Of a DNA stretch of 24,140 nt, positions 16,067 through 21,862 are shown piece by piece. The stretch spans positions 1 through 24,140 of the forward strand of contig DNLZ01000243.1 of the NCBI GenBank assembly GCA_003488325.1. The letters are read 5' to 3'. Origin of the DNA: Planctomycetaceae bacterium (GTDB lineage: Bacteria; Planctomycetota; Planctomycetia; Pirellulales; UBA1268). Position numbers and translations under genes: made by a program. The notes below the pieces were generated by a model that made no database searches, was not told the DNA's origin, and worked only from the letters and a program-made list of their open reading frames with translations. Position 1 is the first letter of the stretch; every line of letters starts with the position of its first letter.

Positions 16067-17662
16067 TCACTTCGCTTCGGCGGTCACACCCGGAAAGTCA
16101 TCGGTGCGAAACGGCGTGAGTGGCAGGCCGGCAGCGGAGTACATGTTGCAAACCGGGTTGTCGGCCCACGCGTACCGCACGGCGACGGGCTCCGCCACGG
16201 CCGGGCTCGAGACCTCGATCCGACCGTCGTCCAGGATCTTCGCGACCGCCGGCACGAACGCCCGATCCGCTCCCGCGATCGTGAAGCCGACAGGCTCGGC
16301 GACGTCGAACGGCCTCCACGCGGCCTTCGCGGGCTCGACGTTGGCGAACGACAGCACGATGCCGCCTCCGCTCCGCTCCATCGACGCATACCGCGGGCTC
16401 CGACAGGCCACGCCCGAGCGGCCGTAGGTCTCGGCGAGCGCCCAGCGCGCGAGCCGCTTGGCGACATCCTGCTTGTTCTTGGGGTGGATGTCCTTGCCCT
16501 CGCCCAGGTCGATGATGACGGCCTCGCCGGTGTTCGGCAGCGCGTCGAGCGTCATGGTCTGCGCCTCGCGCAGTTCGGCCCAGTCGCTCTCCGCGGGATC
16601 CGGCTTCACCGCCTTGAAGTCCGCCAACTGGACCCAATAGAAGGGGAAGTCGCGGTTGTCGGCGAGGTTCCACTCCTCGCGCCACGACGCGATCATGAGC
16701 GGGAAGAGCTCGCGGTATTGATACGCCCGCGACGCGTTCGACTCGCCCTGGTACCAGATCACGCCGCGCAGCCCGTAGCCGATCGACGGGGTGAGGACGC
16801 CGGAGTGGATGTTGCCGGGCCGCGCGTTGCCCCGCATGCGCCCCTCCGGATTGGCACCGGGATTGGGGCGGGCCGGGGGCTGCGTGCCGTCCGCCTTCGC
16901 CTTGGCCGCGGCCTCCTCCCACTTCTTCACGCTCGCGTCGTAGGCCGCCTTCTCCGCCTCGTATCCGGCCTCCATGCCAGCCCAGCGTTCGTGGATCGCC
17001 CGCAGCGTGGGATGGCCGGCGAGACGGTCGCGTCGCACCCACGCCTCGGCCGCGCTGCCGCCCCACGCGTTGTCGATGAGACCGACGGGCACGCCGAGCG
17101 TCTGGTGCAATTGCCGGCCGAAATAGTAGCCGACTGCCGAGAACTCCCCGACGGTCTCGGGCGAGCAGGCCTGCCACGAGCCGGAGAACGTCCACTGGGG
17201 ATCCTGCGTGCCGACCTGCGGAACCGAGATGAAGCGGATCTGCGGATACGACGCGGCGGCCTTCTCGAGGTCGGCGTCGTTGCTCTGGTTCACGCTCCAC
17301 TGCATGTTCGACTGCCCCGAGCAGATCCAGACCTCGCCGATGAGCACGTCGTTGAACGTGAGCGTGTTCTTGCCCTTGACGGTGAGGGTGTGCGGTCCGC
17401 CATAGGCGGTCACAGGGTCGAGCATGACGTGCCACGCACCGTCAGGACCCGCCGTCCCCGCGTGGGACTGGCCGCCGAGGGTGACGGTCACCTGCTCGCC
17501 CGCATCGGCCCGTCCCCAGATGCGATTGCGGATGCCCTGCTGCAGCACCATGTGATCACCGAACATGGCGTTGAGCGACACATCGGCGGACGCCGTGCAC
17601 GCGACGATGGAGGCGACGAGGGTGATTCCCGCACGGATCGCGGCCTGGTGAGGCATCGACAT
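16067..17662 (-). CDS. Sialate O-acetylesterase-like carbohydrate esterase (SASA / SGNH family), exported
   Basis: FGDHMVLQQ; GEVWICSGQSNM (catalytic Ser block); WGGS; VIWYQGESN; DIHPKNK (Asp-x-His); VRYAWADNP...LPLTPFRTD. AGGAG upstream of ATG 17662, followed by a signal peptide. Confidence 0.93.
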   Translation of the reverse strand: MSMPHQAAIRAGITLVASIVACTASADVSLNAMFGDHMVLQQGIRNRIWGRADAGEQVTVTLGGQSHAGTAGPDGAWHVMLDPVTAYGGPHTLTVKGKNTLTFNDVLIGEVWICSGQSNMQWSVNQSNDADLEKAAASYPQIRFISVPQVGTQDPQWTFSGSWQACSPETVGEFSAVGYYFGRQLHQTLGVPVGLIDNAWGGSAAEAWVRRDRLAGHPTLRAIHERWAGMEAGYEAEKAAYDASVKKWEEAAAKAKADGTQPPARPNPGANPEGRMRGNARPGNIHSGVLTPSIGYGLRGVIWYQGESNASRAYQYRELFPLMIASWREEWNLADNRDFPFYWVQLADFKAVKPDPAESDWAELREAQTMTLDALPNTGEAVIIDLGEGKDIHPKNKQDVAKRLARWALAETYGRSGVACRSPRYASMERSGGGIVLSFANVEPAKAAWRPFDVAEPVGFTIAGADRAFVPAVAKILDDGRIEVSSPAVAEPVAVRYAWADNPVCNMYSAAGLPLTPFRTDDFPGVTAEAK

Positions 17663-17733
17663 GGCAACCGGCTCCTGGTGGCGAGGGGCGGCAGGACGCA
17701 CCCGACGGGCGATCGTTCCCGGCACCCCGCGGC

Positions 17734-17761
17734 AGCATACTGCCCGCGTCACGGGCCTCAA
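17734..17761 (-). promoter_or_regulatory. Candidate sigma70-type promoter of the esterase gene
   Basis: On the minus strand, TTGAGG (17761-17756), 16-nt spacer, TATGCT (17739-17734). Confidence 0.3.
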
Positions 17762-17914
17762 ACCGGCGGGAACCCGCGGTTTCGCGGCACTCCAGCGGTC
17801 TGGCCCGCGACTCCGGAAAAGTCAAATTTTGGCGGAAAGAGCGGCTGTCCGCGGCGGGACAACGGGGCTTGGTGAGGGCTCGGTGAAAAAAACGCACAAC
17901 CGCGCCGCACATCC

Positions 17915-17942
17915 TTGCAAGCCGTTTTACTCTACGTATCCT
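17915..17942 (+). promoter_or_regulatory. Candidate sigma70-type promoter of the YTV gene
   Basis: TTGCAA (17915-17920), 16-nt spacer, TATCCT (17937-17942), in a locally AT-richer stretch preceded by an A-tract at 17886-17892. Confidence 0.45.
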
Positions 17943-18077
17943 ATCCAACTTATCAGGCGGCCGAGCGTTTCGGTCGTCGTGGAGAGCGGTCTCTTCGACC
18001 GACCGGCTTCGGGCGCGTTCTCGACAACGTCTCGATCCAGTTCCTGTGTTCCCCCCCTTGTTTCTGAGGAGTTCCTG

Positions 18078-19727
18078 ATGCGGAAGTTTGTTTCCTGCCT
18101 GCTGGCGGCCGTCGCCGTCGCCGCCATGTGCACGAGCACGTGGGCGGCCGACTGCGGTGCCTGCGGCGGCGGTTGTGCCGGTGGCTGCGGTGACGCCGCC
18201 TCCAGCGCGAGCGGCTGTGGTGATGTGGGTGCCGCGTGTGGCGGCACCCGGACGGTGTACCAGCGTCAGTACGTGACCGAGATGCAGACGGTCACGGCGA
18301 CGGAGTACACCACGGAGACGCGTGAGCGGTCCTACACCGTCATGACGCGTGTTCCGAAGACCGAGACGAAGACCCGCACGGTCACCGTCATGGTGCCCGA
18401 GACGAAGACGAAGACCGTCAACTACACGGTCAATCGCAACGTCACGGAGACCAAGACGGCCGAGTACACCGTGCAGGTCCCGTACACCGAGCAGGTCGAG
18501 CAGACCTACACGGTGAACGTGCCGGTGAAGGAGGAGAAGACCTCCACCTACACCGTCATGGTGCCGAAGAGCGAGGAGCGGACCTCGACCTATACGGTCT
18601 CGGTTCCGTACACCGAGCAGGTCGAGCAGACCTACACGGCGATGGTGCCGGTGACGGAGGAGAAGACCTCCACCTACACCGTCATGGTGCCCGTGTCCGA
18701 GGAGAAGACCTCGACCTACACGGTGAGCGTGCCCTACACCGAGCAGGTCGAGCAGACCTACACGGTGAACGTGCCCTACACCGAGGAGATGAGCGGCAGC
18801 CGGACCGTGCAGAAGCGGGTTCCGGTCCAGTCGATGAAGACGGTGCAGGTGCGCGGTGGCTCGTGGCAGAACCAGATGGTCGAGGTGCCGGGTGGCACCG
18901 ACGCCTGCGGCTGCCCCTGCCCGCCGAAGCAGTGCTGCAAGCGGGTCTGGGTGCCCACGTGTGAGACGAAGGAAGTTCCCGTGACCACCTACGAGTGCGT
19001 CACCGAGGAGGTTCCCTACTCCTACACGGTCACCAAGTGCCGTCAGGAGCAGCGCAGCCGGATGGTCAGCGTCACCAAGCACCGTCAGGAGGAGCGGACC
19101 CGGACCTACACGGTCACGAGCTGCCGTCCTGAGGAGCGGACCCGGACCTACACCGTGACGAAGATGGTGCCCGAGCAGAAGACCCGGACGGTCTCTGTCA
19201 CCAAGCACCGTCAGGAGGAGCGGACCCGCACCCACACCGTCACGGTCAACGTGCCGGAGGAGCGGACCCGCACCTACACCGTCACGAAGATGGTGCCGGA
19301 GCAGAAGACCCGTTCGGTCAGCGTCACCAAGTACCGCACCGAGACGAAGACTCGGGAGTACACGGTGACGAAGTGCGTGCCGGAGACGATGACCAAGGAG
19401 GTCTCGTACACGGTCATGGTTCCGCAGCAGAAGGAAGAGTCGTACACCGTGACGACCTACGACTGCGTGCCGGAGACCAAGACGTCGACCTACACGGTCC
19501 GCGTTCCGCACACGGTCACCAAGGAGGTGCCGGTGCAGAAGTGCGTGACGGTCGCGGTCGAGGTGCCCGTCGAGGGCGGCTGTGGTGGTGATGCCGGTGC
19601 CGCCGGTGCCGGTGCCTGTGGCGACGCGGGTGCCTGCGGTGCCGCCGGTGCCTGCGGTGGCGAGGCCGCCGCGTGCGGCTCGGGTGGTCGTGGCTGCCGC
19701 AAGCGCGGCTGCCGTCGCGGCTGCTGA
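18078..19727 (+). CDS. Secreted Cys-rich YTV-repeat protein (planctomycete envelope/structural protein family), 549 aa
   Basis: GAGGAG 6 nt upstream of ATG 18078; signal peptide MRKFVSCLLAAVAVAAMCTSTWA; many 14-aa YTV repeats; Cys/Gly-rich ends. YTV repeats are known from Rhodopirellula (Pfam YTV family, recalled rather than searched). Confidence 0.92.
   Translation: MRKFVSCLLAAVAVAAMCTSTWAADCGACGGGCAGGCGDAASSASGCGDVGAACGGTRTVYQRQYVTEMQTVTATEYTTETRERSYTVMTRVPKTETKTRTVTVMVPETKTKTVNYTVNRNVTETKTAEYTVQVPYTEQVEQTYTVNVPVKEEKTSTYTVMVPKSEERTSTYTVSVPYTEQVEQTYTAMVPVTEEKTSTYTVMVPVSEEKTSTYTVSVPYTEQVEQTYTVNVPYTEEMSGSRTVQKRVPVQSMKTVQVRGGSWQNQMVEVPGGTDACGCPCPPKQCCKRVWVPTCETKEVPVTTYECVTEEVPYSYTVTKCRQEQRSRMVSVTKHRQEERTRTYTVTSCRPEERTRTYTVTKMVPEQKTRTVSVTKHRQEERTRTHTVTVNVPEERTRTYTVTKMVPEQKTRSVSVTKYRTETKTREYTVTKCVPETMTKEVSYTVMVPQQKEESYTVTTYDCVPETKTSTYTVRVPHTVTKEVPVQKCVTVAVEVPVEGGCGGDAGAAGAGACGDAGACGAAGACGGEAAACGSGGRGCRKRGCRRGC
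18465..18800 (+). repeat. YTV N-arm: 8 x 42-nt (14-aa) coding repeats with a 126-nt super-period
   Basis: Units of the type YTVxVPYTEQVEQT and YTVxVPxxEEKTST. Near-identical DNA CC(G/C)TACACCGAGCAGGTCGAGCAGACCTACACGG at 18480, 18606 and 18732. Confidence 0.9.
19023..19358 (+). repeat. YTV C-arm: 8 x 42-nt (14-aa) coding repeats with a 126-nt super-period
   Basis: Units of the type VSVTKHRQEERTRT, YTVTxxxPEERTRT and YTVTKMVPEQKTRT. GTCACCAAG anchors at 19071, 19197 and 19323. Confidence 0.9.
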
Positions 19728-19768
19728 AGGCTGAACGACGGGCTCACCAGCCGTCGCTGATGTGATCA

Positions 19769-19808
19769 GAGGGGGTCGGACGCAACGCGTCCGACCCCCT
19801 CGTTTTTT
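19769..19808 (+). terminator. Rho-independent terminator after the YTV gene
   Basis: Perfect 15-bp stem GAGGGGGTCGGACGC (19769-19783) / GCGTCCGACCCCCTC (19787-19801), AAC loop, followed by GTTTTTT. Confidence 0.9.
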
Positions 19809-20053
19809 GCGGGCTTTTTCCCCCGACGCAAGTGATTCGCCCCAGCCGGTCGGCCGATTCCAGCCTCGCACGGCACCGGAGGAATCGGGCGATCGCGGCG
19901 CGACGCGCTCCAAAAGGGCCGCCCTGGCGGTCCTGACCGACTTGCTGGCGGCAAACCCTGCGGCACGGTACCCTCTGGAGGCCGGCGAACACCCTTTTTC
20001 GCCCATCGATTTTTCTGGGTTGCCGGCCCCCGCCACCCGCTCGGACTCGTGCC

Positions 20054-20410
20054 ATGGACCAGTTTCGCAGAATCCAGACCGGCAAGAAGGGCGACATTCA
20101 CATGGTGCTCTTCAAGGACAAGAAGATCCTCGACGACACCACGCTCGACGAGATCCGTTCGGAAATGACCCAGCTCATCGGCAAGGCGTCGGGTCCGGAC
20201 GTGCTGCTCGACTTCTCGAACGTCGAGTTCATGTCGAGCGCCATGCTCGGCCTGCTCGGCCAGCTGCATCGGAAGATCTCGGCCGGCCATGGACGACTGA
20301 AGATGTGCGGCATCCGGCCGGAAATCTTCCAGGTCTTCAAACTCACGAACCTCGACAAGCTCTTCAGCATCCACAAGGATGCCCCGACCGCGCTGGCCAC
20401 CTTCACCTGA
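20054..20410 (+). CDS. STAS-domain protein (anti-sigma factor antagonist, RsbV/SpoIIAA-like)
   Basis: VLLDFSNVEFMSSAMLGLL (phospho-Ser region), GRLKMCGIRPEIFQVFKLTNLDKLF; 118 aa. Confidence 0.92.
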   Translation: MDQFRRIQTGKKGDIHMVLFKDKKILDDTTLDEIRSEMTQLIGKASGPDVLLDFSNVEFMSSAMLGLLGQLHRKISAGHGRLKMCGIRPEIFQVFKLTNLDKLFSIHKDAPTALATFT

Positions 20411-20425
20411 CGCGAGGTGGCACAC

Positions 20426-21862
20426 GTGGACGCCAGCAGCGAGGCGGCGACGGCGGAGGCACGCCCTTCCGGCGGAGTGGATGTCCTCATCGCCGAGGAC
20501 AGCCGGATGCAGGCGAAGATGCTCGAGCGTCGGCTCGTCGCCGCAGGCCATACCGTGCGCTGGGCGGAAAACGGGTCGGACGCGCTCGTGCTCGCGCGAC
20601 AACGTCGGCCCGATATCGTCATTTCCGACATTGAAATGCCGGTGATGACCGGCTACGAGTTCTGCAAGTCGCTCAAGTCGGACCCGTCCCTGCGGACCGT
20701 CCCCTTCATCCTGCTCTCCACGCTCGCGGATCCGATCGACATCATCCGCGGCCTCGACGCCGGCGCGGACAACTACGTCACCAAGCCGTACGAGCCCGAA
20801 TACCTCCTCGGACGCATGGAGTCGCTCCTCGCGACGCCGCTGCAGGTCGAGGACGAGGCGGAGTCGGTGCTCGAGGTCAAGCTCGCCGGGCAGACGTTTC
20901 GCGTGCGTGCGGGACGCCAGCAGGCCCTCAATCTGCTCGTCTCGACGTTCGAGAACGCGGTGGCGAAGAACCGCGAACTGATCGTCGCCAACCAGGATCT
21001 CTCGATCGCCCGCGACAGCCTGCAGAAGTCCAACTCGGAATTGCGCGAGCTCAACGAGGAGATTTCCCGGATCAACGCCCACATGGTGCGGGATCTGGAG
21101 GCGGCGGCCCGCGTGCAGCGCTCGCTCCTGCCCGCCGAGGACATGACGCTGCCCTCGGCGAACGTCGCCTGGCGGTACGTCCCATGCCAGGGCCTGGCGG
21201 GAGACTTTCTCAATTTCTTCCCGCTCGACGAGGAGCACGCCGGCCTGTTCGTCGTCGACGTGAGCGGCCACGGGGTGCCGTCGTCCCTGATGGCCGTGAC
21301 GGTGGGACGCTTCCTCGTGCCGAAGGTGTCGGACTCGGCCGTGCTCGTCCGGCAGGGTCCCGATGGCCGACCCGTGATCGTGCCCCCGGCGGAGGTCGCG
21401 ACCCAGCTCAACCGCCTCTTCCAGGCCGACGAGTTCTCCGGCCTCTACTTCACGATGCTCTACGCGGTGCTCCACCTGCCGACCGGGAGGCTCGACTACG
21501 TGTCGGGAGGGCACCCGGCGCTCGTGCGGGTGCCGGGCGACGGCGCCGATCTCGAGTTTCACGCCGCCGAGGGATTTCCGATCGCGTTCGTTCCCGAGAT
21601 CGAGTACGCGCAGCAGTCGCTCCAGCTCTCCCCGGGTGACCGCATCTACTTCTATTCCGACGGCGTGCCCGAGGCGATGGATGCGGAGAAGAACCCGTAC
21701 GGCGACGAGGCGATGGCGGCCTGCATGCGGGCCGCCCGCGACCTGCCGCTCGAGGAGAGCGTGGCGTCGCTGCTCGCCGCGGTCGAGACGTGGTGTCAGC
21801 CGAACGGCCCGCTCGACGACATTTCCATCCTCGGCCTCGAGTGGCGGCCATCGTCGGGCTGA
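20426..21862 (+). CDS. Response regulator receiver + PP2C/SpoIIE Ser phosphatase (RsbU/RsbP-like)
   Basis: REC domain: AEDS, DIVISDIEMP (phospho-Asp), LLST, TKP. Coiled-coil linker. PP2C motifs AGDF, VVDVSGHG, YSDGVPE and DDISIL. GAGGTG lies 6 nt before GTG 20426; the alternative start is GTG 20417. Confidence 0.95.
   Translation: MDASSEAATAEARPSGGVDVLIAEDSRMQAKMLERRLVAAGHTVRWAENGSDALVLARQRRPDIVISDIEMPVMTGYEFCKSLKSDPSLRTVPFILLSTLADPIDIIRGLDAGADNYVTKPYEPEYLLGRMESLLATPLQVEDEAESVLEVKLAGQTFRVRAGRQQALNLLVSTFENAVAKNRELIVANQDLSIARDSLQKSNSELRELNEEISRINAHMVRDLEAAARVQRSLLPAEDMTLPSANVAWRYVPCQGLAGDFLNFFPLDEEHAGLFVVDVSGHGVPSSLMAVTVGRFLVPKVSDSAVLVRQGPDGRPVIVPPAEVATQLNRLFQADEFSGLYFTMLYAVLHLPTGRLDYVSGGHPALVRVPGDGADLEFHAAEGFPIAFVPEIEYAQQSLQLSPGDRIYFYSDGVPEAMDAEKNPYGDEAMAACMRAARDLPLEESVASLLAAVETWCQPNGPLDDISILGLEWRPSSG

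What the first reader, a model, noticed from the sequence alone, without database searches (positions are those of the whole stretch)
18078..19727. YTV protein is mirror-symmetric: candidate ~70 nm fold-back beta-hairpin rod
Seen in sequence: the beta-prone region (T57-V498) is centred on residue ~277-278, which is exactly the turn GGTDACGCPCPPKQCC (C277 codon at 18906). The only two Trp of the mature chain, W263 and W291, are equidistant from C277. Eight 14-aa units (aa 130-241) and eight different 14-aa units (aa 316-427) sit symmetrically either side. Counting K+R minus D+E, the N-arm block is about -10 and the C-arm block about +14. Established, from memory: YTV-repeat, Cys-rich proteins are described as planctomycete envelope proteins. 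Inference: the chain folds back into one very long antiparallel two-stranded ribbon, the arms held together by charge complementarity. At about 220 residues per arm and about 0.33 nm per residue this is a ~70 nm rod. It could act as a strut, fibre subunit or molecular ruler. I am not aware of this fold-back architecture being described, but cannot check the literature.
Basis: partly seen in the sequence, partly recalled or inferred. Interest (0 to 1): 0.85.

Follow-up and report, generated by a model that had tools for sequence, protein, structure and literature searches.

The report
Giant beta-hairpin YTV cell-wall protein
This gene encodes an ordinary member of the known cysteine-rich YTV cell-wall protein family of planctomycete bacteria, but structure prediction, residue co-variation and exactly matched arm lengths in over 130 relatives all indicate that its two repeat halves zip into one two-stranded beta-hairpin of about 214 residue pairs (up to about 70 nm), a shape with no solved counterpart.

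Summary
**Observation: confirmed.** Window 18078-19727 (+) encodes a 549-aa secreted YTV protein (PF07639, E 6.7e-31).

**Interpretation: the core is supported.**
- Two AlphaFold2 runs on independent alignments give one continuous hairpin, residues 57/58-270 against 284-496/497.
- My co-variation test peaks at i+j = 554, with satellites at 552 and 556. It does so whether anchored at the turn or at the open end.
- Between conserved anchors, the N arm minus the C arm is exactly 2 residues. This holds in 73 of 79 database homologues and 57 of 65 genome orthologues, for arms of 72 to 312 residues in mostly 14-residue steps.
- All 1,223 arm prolines in 73 homologues share the parity of the conserved Trp pair W263/W291.

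**Not supported:** a charge zipper. At register 554 there is only one direct opposite-charge pair. The pairs are Tyr against Lys/Arg (20) and Thr/Ser against Thr/Ser (33). The acidic-arm/basic-arm asymmetry is confined to this orthologue clade.

**Open points**
- Monomeric fold-back versus a swapped dimer.
- The real rod length.
- The wall-mesh function.

This scan reached the same hairpin reading before on other genomes. I found no paper describing it.

The parts
18078..19727 (+). YTV protein gene, 549 codons plus stop (protein P0001)
   Evidence: Translation; Pfam PF07639, E 6.7e-31.
18078..18146 (+). Sec-type signal peptide, aa 1-23 (basic start, hydrophobic core, T-W-A before the cut). Holds W22, C7 and C18.
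   Evidence: Read from the sequence. AlphaFold2 gives a helix at 2-16. The N-terminus is conserved in orthologues. No signal-peptide predictor was available.
18147..18245 (+). N-terminal Cys/Gly cap, aa 24-56, six Cys (26, 29, 33, 37, 47, 54).
   Evidence: Cys positions; pLDDT below 50; C33 and C47 nearly invariant.
18246..18887 (+). N arm of the hairpin, aa 57-270. Net acidic in its regular block 130-241.
   Evidence: AlphaFold2 strands 57-164 plus 171-270 and 58-270; co-variation.
18476..18775 (+). 126-bp (3 x 14 aa) super-repeat inside the N arm: 2.4 copies, 87% matches.
   Evidence: Tandem Repeats Finder. Longest exact repeats are 36 and 41 nt.
18864..18866 (+). W263 codon, the cross-strand partner of W291.
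   Evidence: 263+291 = 554. At least 90% conserved. Serves as the anchor of the co-variation ridge.
18888..18926 (+). Turn with the central Cys knot, aa 271-283 (C277, C279, C281). C286, C287 and C295 follow on the C arm.
   Evidence: Non-strand in both models. C277 and C281 nearly invariant. The W-to-W loop varies from 20 to 128 aa across the family.
18948..18950 (+). W291 codon, invariant in 76 homologues.
18927..19568 (+). C arm of the hairpin, aa 284-497. Net basic, and holds all the Cys that lie within the arms.
   Evidence: AlphaFold2 strands 284-383 plus 390-497 and 284-496; co-variation.
19058..19385 (+). 126-bp super-repeat inside the C arm: 2.6 copies, 78% matches. It faces the N-arm super-repeat.
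   Evidence: Tandem Repeats Finder.
19569..19724 (+). C-terminal Cys/Gly/Ala cap with a basic Cys tail, aa 498-549, eight Cys.
   Evidence: Cys positions; pLDDT below 50; C502 nearly invariant.
19769..19811 (+). Intrinsic-terminator-like hairpin 42 nt after the stop: 15-bp stem with 12 G-C pairs, then a T run.

Best explanation
The gene encodes a secreted YTV-family wall protein. Its mature chain folds back on itself.

**Fold.** Residues 57-270 (N arm) pair antiparallel with 284-497 (C arm) in the single register i+j = 554. This gives a two-stranded beta-ribbon of about 214 residue pairs, with a contour length of up to about 70 nm.

**Closure.** The ribbon is closed by a 13-residue Cys-rich turn, just beyond the conserved cross-strand Trp pair W263/W291.

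**Open end.** The N-terminal cap (6 Cys) and the C-terminal cap (8 Cys) come together there.

**Faces.**
- One face carries Val, Tyr and the charged residues, mostly as Tyr against Lys/Arg and Val against a charged residue.
- The other face carries Thr/Ser pairs, all the prolines and nearly all the arm Cys.

**Inferred steps.**
- The prolines sit at the non-hydrogen-bonded positions of both edges and block sideways sheet growth, so the ribbon stays a rod.
- The Cys knots at both ends, and the arm Cys, disulfide-link rods into the SDS-resistant protein wall described for this family.

**Length evolution.** Rod length evolves in 14-residue units, about 4.6 nm per unit, that must be gained or lost in both arms.
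For: **Shown here**
1. Two AlphaFold2 runs on independent alignments (76 diverse homologues; 54 genome orthologues) give the same hairpin and the same register.
   - pLDDT 69.5, above 85 near both ends.
   - pLDDT 58.3, unbroken strands.
2. APC-corrected mutual information between the arms peaks at i+j = 554 (0.10, against a background of -0.019).
   - Satellites lie at 552 and 556 and nothing at odd offsets, as expected for cross-strand and diagonal neighbours.
   - 27 of the top 30 inter-arm pairs lie on these lines, where about 1.5 would be expected.
   - Anchoring at the open end gives the same peak, with 26 of the top 30.
3. Arm lengths between conserved anchors differ by exactly 2 residues in 73/79 homologues (arms 72-210) and 57/65 orthologues (arms 144-312).
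   - With cruder anchors, phylogenetically independent contrasts (lineage-corrected length comparisons) give r = 0.92, with six large coordinated changes in sister pairs.
4. All 1,223 arm prolines in 73 homologues share the parity of the Trp pair. In this protein Val is 76:0 and Pro 0:24 between even and odd positions.
5. Scanning registers on this sequence alone, 554 has the most aromatic-cation pairs (20), ties for the most Thr/Ser pairs (33), and has no like-charge pairs.
6. Both arms hold a 126-bp super-repeat facing each other.

**From the literature**
- YTV proteins are major constituents of SDS-boiled wall preparations (PMC5287468, PMC8567305).
- One is essential in Planctopirus limnophila (PMC10632474).
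Against: - pTM is low (0.28 and 0.22). pLDDT falls below 50 mid-arm (149-181 and 370-404), where units are near-identical, so continuity there rests on arm-length arithmetic and on the second model.
- I could not read model coordinates, so length, twist and straightness are not measured.
- Co-variation and arm matching cannot tell an intramolecular hairpin from a swapped dimer.
- 7 of 65 orthologues have an N arm that is 28 or 42 residues short.
- The unit count in this MAG could not be verified with independent contigs.
- Localisation and disulfide cross-linking are taken from relatives. Nothing was measured for this protein.
Confidence: 0.75

Rival explanations
1. Swapped pairing. The N arm of one chain pairs with the C arm of another, in the same antiparallel register. 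This would give a dimer about twice as long, or an open-ended polymer, rather than a monomeric fold-back.
For: Co-variation and arm matching are blind to whether the partner arm is in the same chain. The family is known from insoluble wall material (PMC5287468).
Against: The loop here is short: 13 non-strand residues, closed by a conserved Trp pair. In some relatives the W-to-W distance is only 20 residues. Both features favour a local turn. AlphaFold2 was run on a monomer only.
Confidence: 0.12
2. The hairpin is only a protomer. Hairpins join edge to edge into a wide sheet, barrel or tube, as the stems of pore-forming toxins do, or stack face to face as a cross-beta fibre.
For: The only structural look-alikes in the PDB are long hairpins that exist inside oligomeric barrels, such as lysenin, aerolysin, anthrax protective antigen and the phi29 tail. 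One face is rich in Val and Tyr.
Against: Those matches are negligible (TM below 0.1). Prolines recur about every 14 residues on both strands, always in one parity class. By inference these are the outward-facing, non-hydrogen-bonded sites, so they would break edge-to-edge bonding. The Val/Tyr face is interleaved with 83 charged residues.
Confidence: 0.1
3. The units fold locally, as a beta-solenoid, a meander of short hairpins within each arm, or a trimeric beta-spiral like the adenovirus fibre shaft. The two halves would then be independent domains.
For: A 14-residue period with a conserved proline resembles the repeats of fibrous beta proteins (a resemblance from memory). Co-variation within an arm shows a small rise at separation 14.
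Against: There is no consistent local antidiagonal. The best local ones are noisy means over 4-7 pairs, while the inter-arm ridge averages 0.10 over 59 pairs. Independent domains would not need arms matched to the residue. Neither AlphaFold2 run gave such a fold.
Confidence: 0.03

Closest known systems
YTV-domain cysteine-rich cell-wall proteins of Planctomycetia (Pfam PF07639; reported from wall preparations of Rhodopirellula baltica, Gemmata obscuriglobus and Tuwongella immobilis)
   Same: It matches the family model at 106.5 bits. It is Cys-rich and secreted, with YTV units. Its relatives are all planctomycete genomes. It is a member.
   Different: Nothing sets this protein apart from the family. 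What is new is the reading of the family fold. The papers I could search describe the motif, the Cys content, the wall localisation and essentiality, but no three-dimensional architecture.
Stem hairpins of beta-pore-forming toxins and phage tail proteins (lysenin 5ec5, aerolysin 9fnq, anthrax protective antigen 3j9c, phi29 tail 6qz9)
   Same: They are long two-stranded antiparallel hairpins with alternating faces, and they were the best Foldseek hits.
   Different: Those hairpins are several-fold shorter and exist only inside oligomeric barrels. TM-scores are 0.04-0.10 and there is no sequence relation.
Single-layer beta-sheet of Borrelia OspA, and tryptophan-zipper hairpins (both recalled from memory)
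   Same: These are beta structures without a hydrophobic core, built from Thr, Val, Lys and Glu. In tryptophan zippers, cross-strand Trp pairs at non-hydrogen-bonded sites stabilise the hairpin. Here W263/W291 share the parity class of all the prolines.
   Different: They are analogies of principle only. No homology exists, and the scale differs by one to two orders of magnitude.

Membership tests
YTV family (PF07639) | Match to the family HMM above Pfam's gathering score | tested here: met
   106.5 bits against a cut-off of 21, E 6.7e-31, 7 stretches. No NCBIfam model matches.
YTV family (PF07639) | Many tandem units with a Tyr-Thr-Val motif | tested here: met
   17 YTV triplets. Regular 14-aa units at 130-241 and 316-427.
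YTV family (PF07639) | Cysteine-rich, exported protein | tested here: met
   28 Cys in three clusters plus the C arm. The N-terminus looks like a signal peptide (helix 2-16). No dedicated signal-peptide predictor was available.
YTV family (PF07639) | Restricted to Planctomycetia | tested here: met
   The 80 genome loci are almost all labelled Pirellulales, Planctomycetaceae, Planctomycetia or Botrimarina. A few MAGs carry other labels that look like mislabels.
YTV family (PF07639) | Recovered from SDS-insoluble wall preparations | not testable with these tools
   Reported for relatives only (PMC5287468, PMC8567305).
Giant fold-back beta-hairpin (the architecture proposed here and in earlier notes of this scan) | Two arms of equal length between conserved anchors | tested here: met
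   200 against 198 residues here. N minus C = 2 in 73/79 and 57/65 relatives.
Giant fold-back beta-hairpin (the architecture proposed here and in earlier notes of this scan) | Antidiagonal co-variation in one register along both arms | tested here: met
   Peak at i+j = 554 from both ends, with satellites two residues either side.
Giant fold-back beta-hairpin (the architecture proposed here and in earlier notes of this scan) | Structure prediction gives a single long hairpin | tested here: met
   Two AlphaFold2 runs with different alignments. Confidence is low mid-arm.
Giant fold-back beta-hairpin (the architecture proposed here and in earlier notes of this scan) | Unbroken two-residue alternation with no phase slip | tested here: met
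   Val 76:0 and Pro 0:24 by parity here. 1,223 of 1,223 prolines in 73 homologues.
Giant fold-back beta-hairpin (the architecture proposed here and in earlier notes of this scan) | Pairing within one chain (monomer) | not testable with these tools
   No multimer prediction or experiment was possible.
   One opposite-charge pair at register 554. Across the family the arm net charges are +2.8 and +3.3. The asymmetry holds only in the orthologue clade, -3.3 against +14.8.
Beta-solenoid or local-hairpin repeat protein | Contacts between neighbouring units of the same arm | tested here: not met
   No consistent local antidiagonal ridge. Not predicted by AlphaFold2.

The most novel reading that the evidence does not exclude
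YTV proteins are free-standing two-stranded beta-ribbon rods, the longest beta-hairpins known: about 214 residue pairs here, and roughly 90 to 330 pairs in relatives.

Their length is set in 14-residue steps (about 4.6 nm) by matched gain or loss of units in both arms. Cys knots at both ends link them into the protein wall of planctomycetes.

This would be a new class of structural biopolymer, and a concrete building plan for a wall whose make-up has been debated for decades.
Probability: 0.5. Interest if true: 0.85.

Novelty: new member of a known kind. Interest (0 to 1): 0.68.

Why it matters
The make-up of the planctomycete wall is a long-standing question. YTV proteins are its best-documented protein component, and one is essential, yet no architecture has been published in the literature I could search.

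A rod with cross-linking knots at both ends gives directly testable predictions:
- Rod length should be proportional to unit number.
- Contacts should fall at i+j = 554.
- Mesh size should be set by arm length.

A stable ribbon of over 200 residue pairs without a hydrophobic core would also interest protein physics and materials design. The exact matching of arm lengths poses an evolutionary puzzle, because two separate duplications are needed for each length change.

Tried and rejected
1. **Charge zipper.** Rejected as the pairing force. The asymmetry is real only within this orthologue clade.
2. **Crude arm measurement from Cys clusters.** This gave r = 0.77-0.92 and an apparent group of unequal-armed homologues. 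Reading those sequences showed long N-terminal caps and long W-to-W loops, not unequal arms. Exact anchors removed the discrepancy.
3. **Local hairpins or a solenoid.** No signal.
4. **Solved relatives.** None by sequence. By fold there were only negligible matches.
5. **NCBIfam.** No model.
6. **Independent check of repeat copy number with public runs.** Contigs break inside both arrays, so the result is inconclusive.
7. **Gene neighbourhood.** It gives no functional partner. A divergent SASA esterase is syntenic in 32 of 80 loci, and a STAS/SpoIIE pair in 7.
8. **Mahajan et al. 2020.** The paper could not be retrieved.

Full report
**1. What is there**

Window 18078-19727 (+) is an open frame of 549 codons.
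- It matches Pfam YTV (PF07639) at 106.5 bits against a cut-off of 21, in seven stretches. No NCBIfam model matches.
- The N-terminus reads as a Sec signal peptide: a basic start, a hydrophobic core, and T-W-A before the likely cut. AlphaFold2 makes residues 2-16 a helix.
- A 15-bp G+C-rich stem followed by a T run lies 42 nt after the stop, so the gene looks like a self-contained transcription unit.
- The long antisense frame 17556-20036 is most likely a by-product of high G+C content and repeats.

**2. The observation**

- Trp occurs only at 22, 263 and 291.
- The Cys-rich turn segment is at 272-287.
- There are eight 14-aa units at 130-241 (net charge -10) and eight different 14-aa units at 316-427 (+14).
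- The beta-prone region is centred on residue 277.5.

At the DNA level each arm holds a 126-bp (three-unit) super-repeat:
- 18476-18775: 2.4 copies, 87% matches.
- 19058-19385: 2.6 copies, 78% matches.

**3. A family-wide plan**

Searches returned 367 hits and 761 hits at E of 0.001 or better.
- Most full-length members share one layout: N-terminal Cys cluster, arm, central Cys cluster flanked by two Trp, arm, C-terminal Cys cluster.
- In an alignment of 76 members W291 is invariant. G261 is also invariant, and W263, C277 and C281 are nearly so.

**4. Arm lengths**

- Crude anchors already gave r = 0.77-0.92. Phylogenetically independent contrasts (lineage-corrected length comparisons) gave r = 0.92, with six large coordinated changes in sister pairs.
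- An apparent group with unequal arms turned out to have long N-terminal caps and long W-to-W loops.
- I then used exact anchors: the conserved Pro aligned with residue 63 up to W263, against W291 up to the conserved C489.
  - N minus C is exactly 2 residues in 73 of 79 database homologues, for arms of 72, 102, 116, 130, 144, 156, 158, 200 and 210 residues.
  - A separate set of 80 genome loci, mostly freshwater MAGs labelled Pirellulales or Planctomycetaceae, gave the same. 57 of 65 had N minus C = 2, with arms of 144 to 312 residues in steps of 14 or 28.
- This protein has arms of 200 and 198 residues. So does L011, a 94%-identical orthologue.

**5. Structure prediction**

- AlphaFold2 on the diverse alignment gave strands 57-164, 171-270, 284-383 and 390-497. 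Every limit mirrors about i+j = 554.
- pLDDT exceeds 85 near both ends. It drops below 50 at 149-181 and 370-404, which face each other and lie in the near-identical units.
- A second run on 54 orthologues, an independent alignment, gave unbroken strands 58-270 and 284-496 in the same register, at lower confidence.
- pTM is low in both runs (0.28 and 0.22).
- I could not read coordinates. The figure of about 70 nm (214 pairs at about 0.33 nm) is therefore a contour-length upper bound, not a measurement.

**6. Co-variation, computed here**

- I anchored 128 sequences without gaps on the two Trp. APC-corrected mutual information between the arms has:
  - a ridge at offset 0 (0.10),
  - satellites at offsets of plus and minus 2 (0.064 and 0.078),
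  - nothing at odd offsets,
  - a background of -0.019.
- The ridge persists for all 60 residues examined. 27 of the 30 strongest inter-arm pairs lie on i+j = 552, 554 or 556.
- I repeated the test from the open end, anchoring 118 sequences on the Pro-63 equivalent and C489. The peak is again at 554, and 26 of the top 30 pairs lie on the three lines.
- Within the arms there is the expected i,i+2 signal but no consistent local hairpin ridge.

**7. Chemistry of the ribbon**

Under register 554, partners have the same parity.

| Positions | Val | Tyr | Lys/Arg | Asp/Glu | Thr/Ser | Pro | Cys |
|---|---|---|---|---|---|---|---|
| Even | 76 | 23 | 54 | 29 | 13 | 0 | 1 |
| Odd | 0 | 6 | 7 | 22 | 106 | 24 | 8 |

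- Across 73 homologues, all 1,223 arm prolines share the parity of the Trp pair.
- From the geometry of antiparallel sheets (established knowledge), one parity class is the non-hydrogen-bonded class, whose NH groups point outward.
- My inference is that Pro, and the Trp pair, occupy those sites. The edges would then be capped against sideways sheet growth.

Scanning registers on this sequence alone, 554 has:
- the most aromatic-cation pairs (20),
- a tie with 556 and 558 for the most Thr/Ser pairs (33),
- no like-charge pair,
- only one opposite-charge pair.

So the arms are not zipped by salt bridges.
- The net-charge asymmetry is absent in the wider family.
- It is conserved only in this orthologue clade: N arm -3.3 against C arm +14.8, with N below C in 93%.

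**8. Comparison with what is known**

- No PDB chain matches by sequence.
- Foldseek finds only the long stem hairpins of pore-forming toxins and phage tail proteins, at TM 0.04-0.10.
- The literature describes YTV proteins as:
  - Cys-rich major constituents of SDS-resistant walls (PMC5287468, PMC8567305, PMC12673574),
  - restricted to Planctomycetia,
  - essential in Planctopirus limnophila in one case (PMC10632474).
- No paper in the searchable library combines YTV with hairpin or AlphaFold. Mahajan et al. 2020 could not be read.
- Earlier notes of this scan reached the same giant-hairpin reading for YTV genes in other genomes. That is not independent evidence, but the tests run here on this protein agree with it.

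**9. Mechanism and limits**

- *Shown:* matched arms, one register from both ends, alternation without slip, and Cys clusters at the turn and at both termini.
- *Inferred:* the hairpin is intramolecular, it stays a single rod, and its end knots and arm Cys disulfide-link rods into the wall.
- *Not resolved:*
  - monomer versus swapped dimer,
  - the true shape,
  - whether the seven orthologues with an N arm 28 or 42 residues short are real intermediates or collapsed repeats. They always lack units in the most repetitive part of the N arm.
- Public short-read contigs break inside both arrays, so the copy number here could not be confirmed independently.

**10. Verdict**

This is an ordinary member of a known family. 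It carries clear, multiply supported evidence for an undescribed and unusual fold.

Noticed in passing
L003:279-1850 (+), contig C118 of the same genome: A second YTV gene (523 aa) with the same central Trp/Cys-knot layout and the same C-terminal basic Cys tail. It has no N-terminal Cys cap, and a Cys ladder (Y-C-V units) runs along its C arm. A third, partial copy lies on contig C459.
   Followed up: partly
L013, L016, L023, L032, L042 (N arm 28 aa short); L058, L066 (N arm 42 aa short): Seven of 65 orthologues break the arm rule by exactly two or three units. The shortfall is always in the most repetitive part of the N arm. They are either tolerated evolutionary intermediates or repeats collapsed by short-read assemblers.
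   Followed up: partly
window 16067-17761 (-): A divergently oriented SASA-type carbohydrate esterase (PF03629). It lies next to the YTV gene in 32 of the 80 related loci. This may be plain synteny among close relatives.
   Followed up: partly
window 20054-21862 (+): A STAS-domain protein followed by a response-regulator/SpoIIE (PP2C) phosphatase, which is a partner-switching pair. It is found downstream of the YTV gene in 7 related loci.
   Followed up: no
window 17900-19850: Near-identical sequence (76-94% of sampled words) is held by at least 19 public runs from freshwater, drinking-water, groundwater and one mollusc-associated metagenome. The organism therefore seems widespread in fresh water. 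No RNA run was sought.
   Followed up: no
L013, L017, L023, L024, L034, L064 (labelled Candidatus Kuenenia stuttgartiensis); L057, L075, L076, L082, L085 (labelled Chitinophagaceae): These MAG records carry 51-80% identical orthologues of this Pirellulales-type YTV gene. Their organism labels are probably wrong, or the bins are contaminated.
   Followed up: no
window 17556-20036 (-): An 826-aa antisense open frame covers the whole YTV gene. It is most likely an artefact of high G+C content and repeat structure, not a gene.
   Followed up: no
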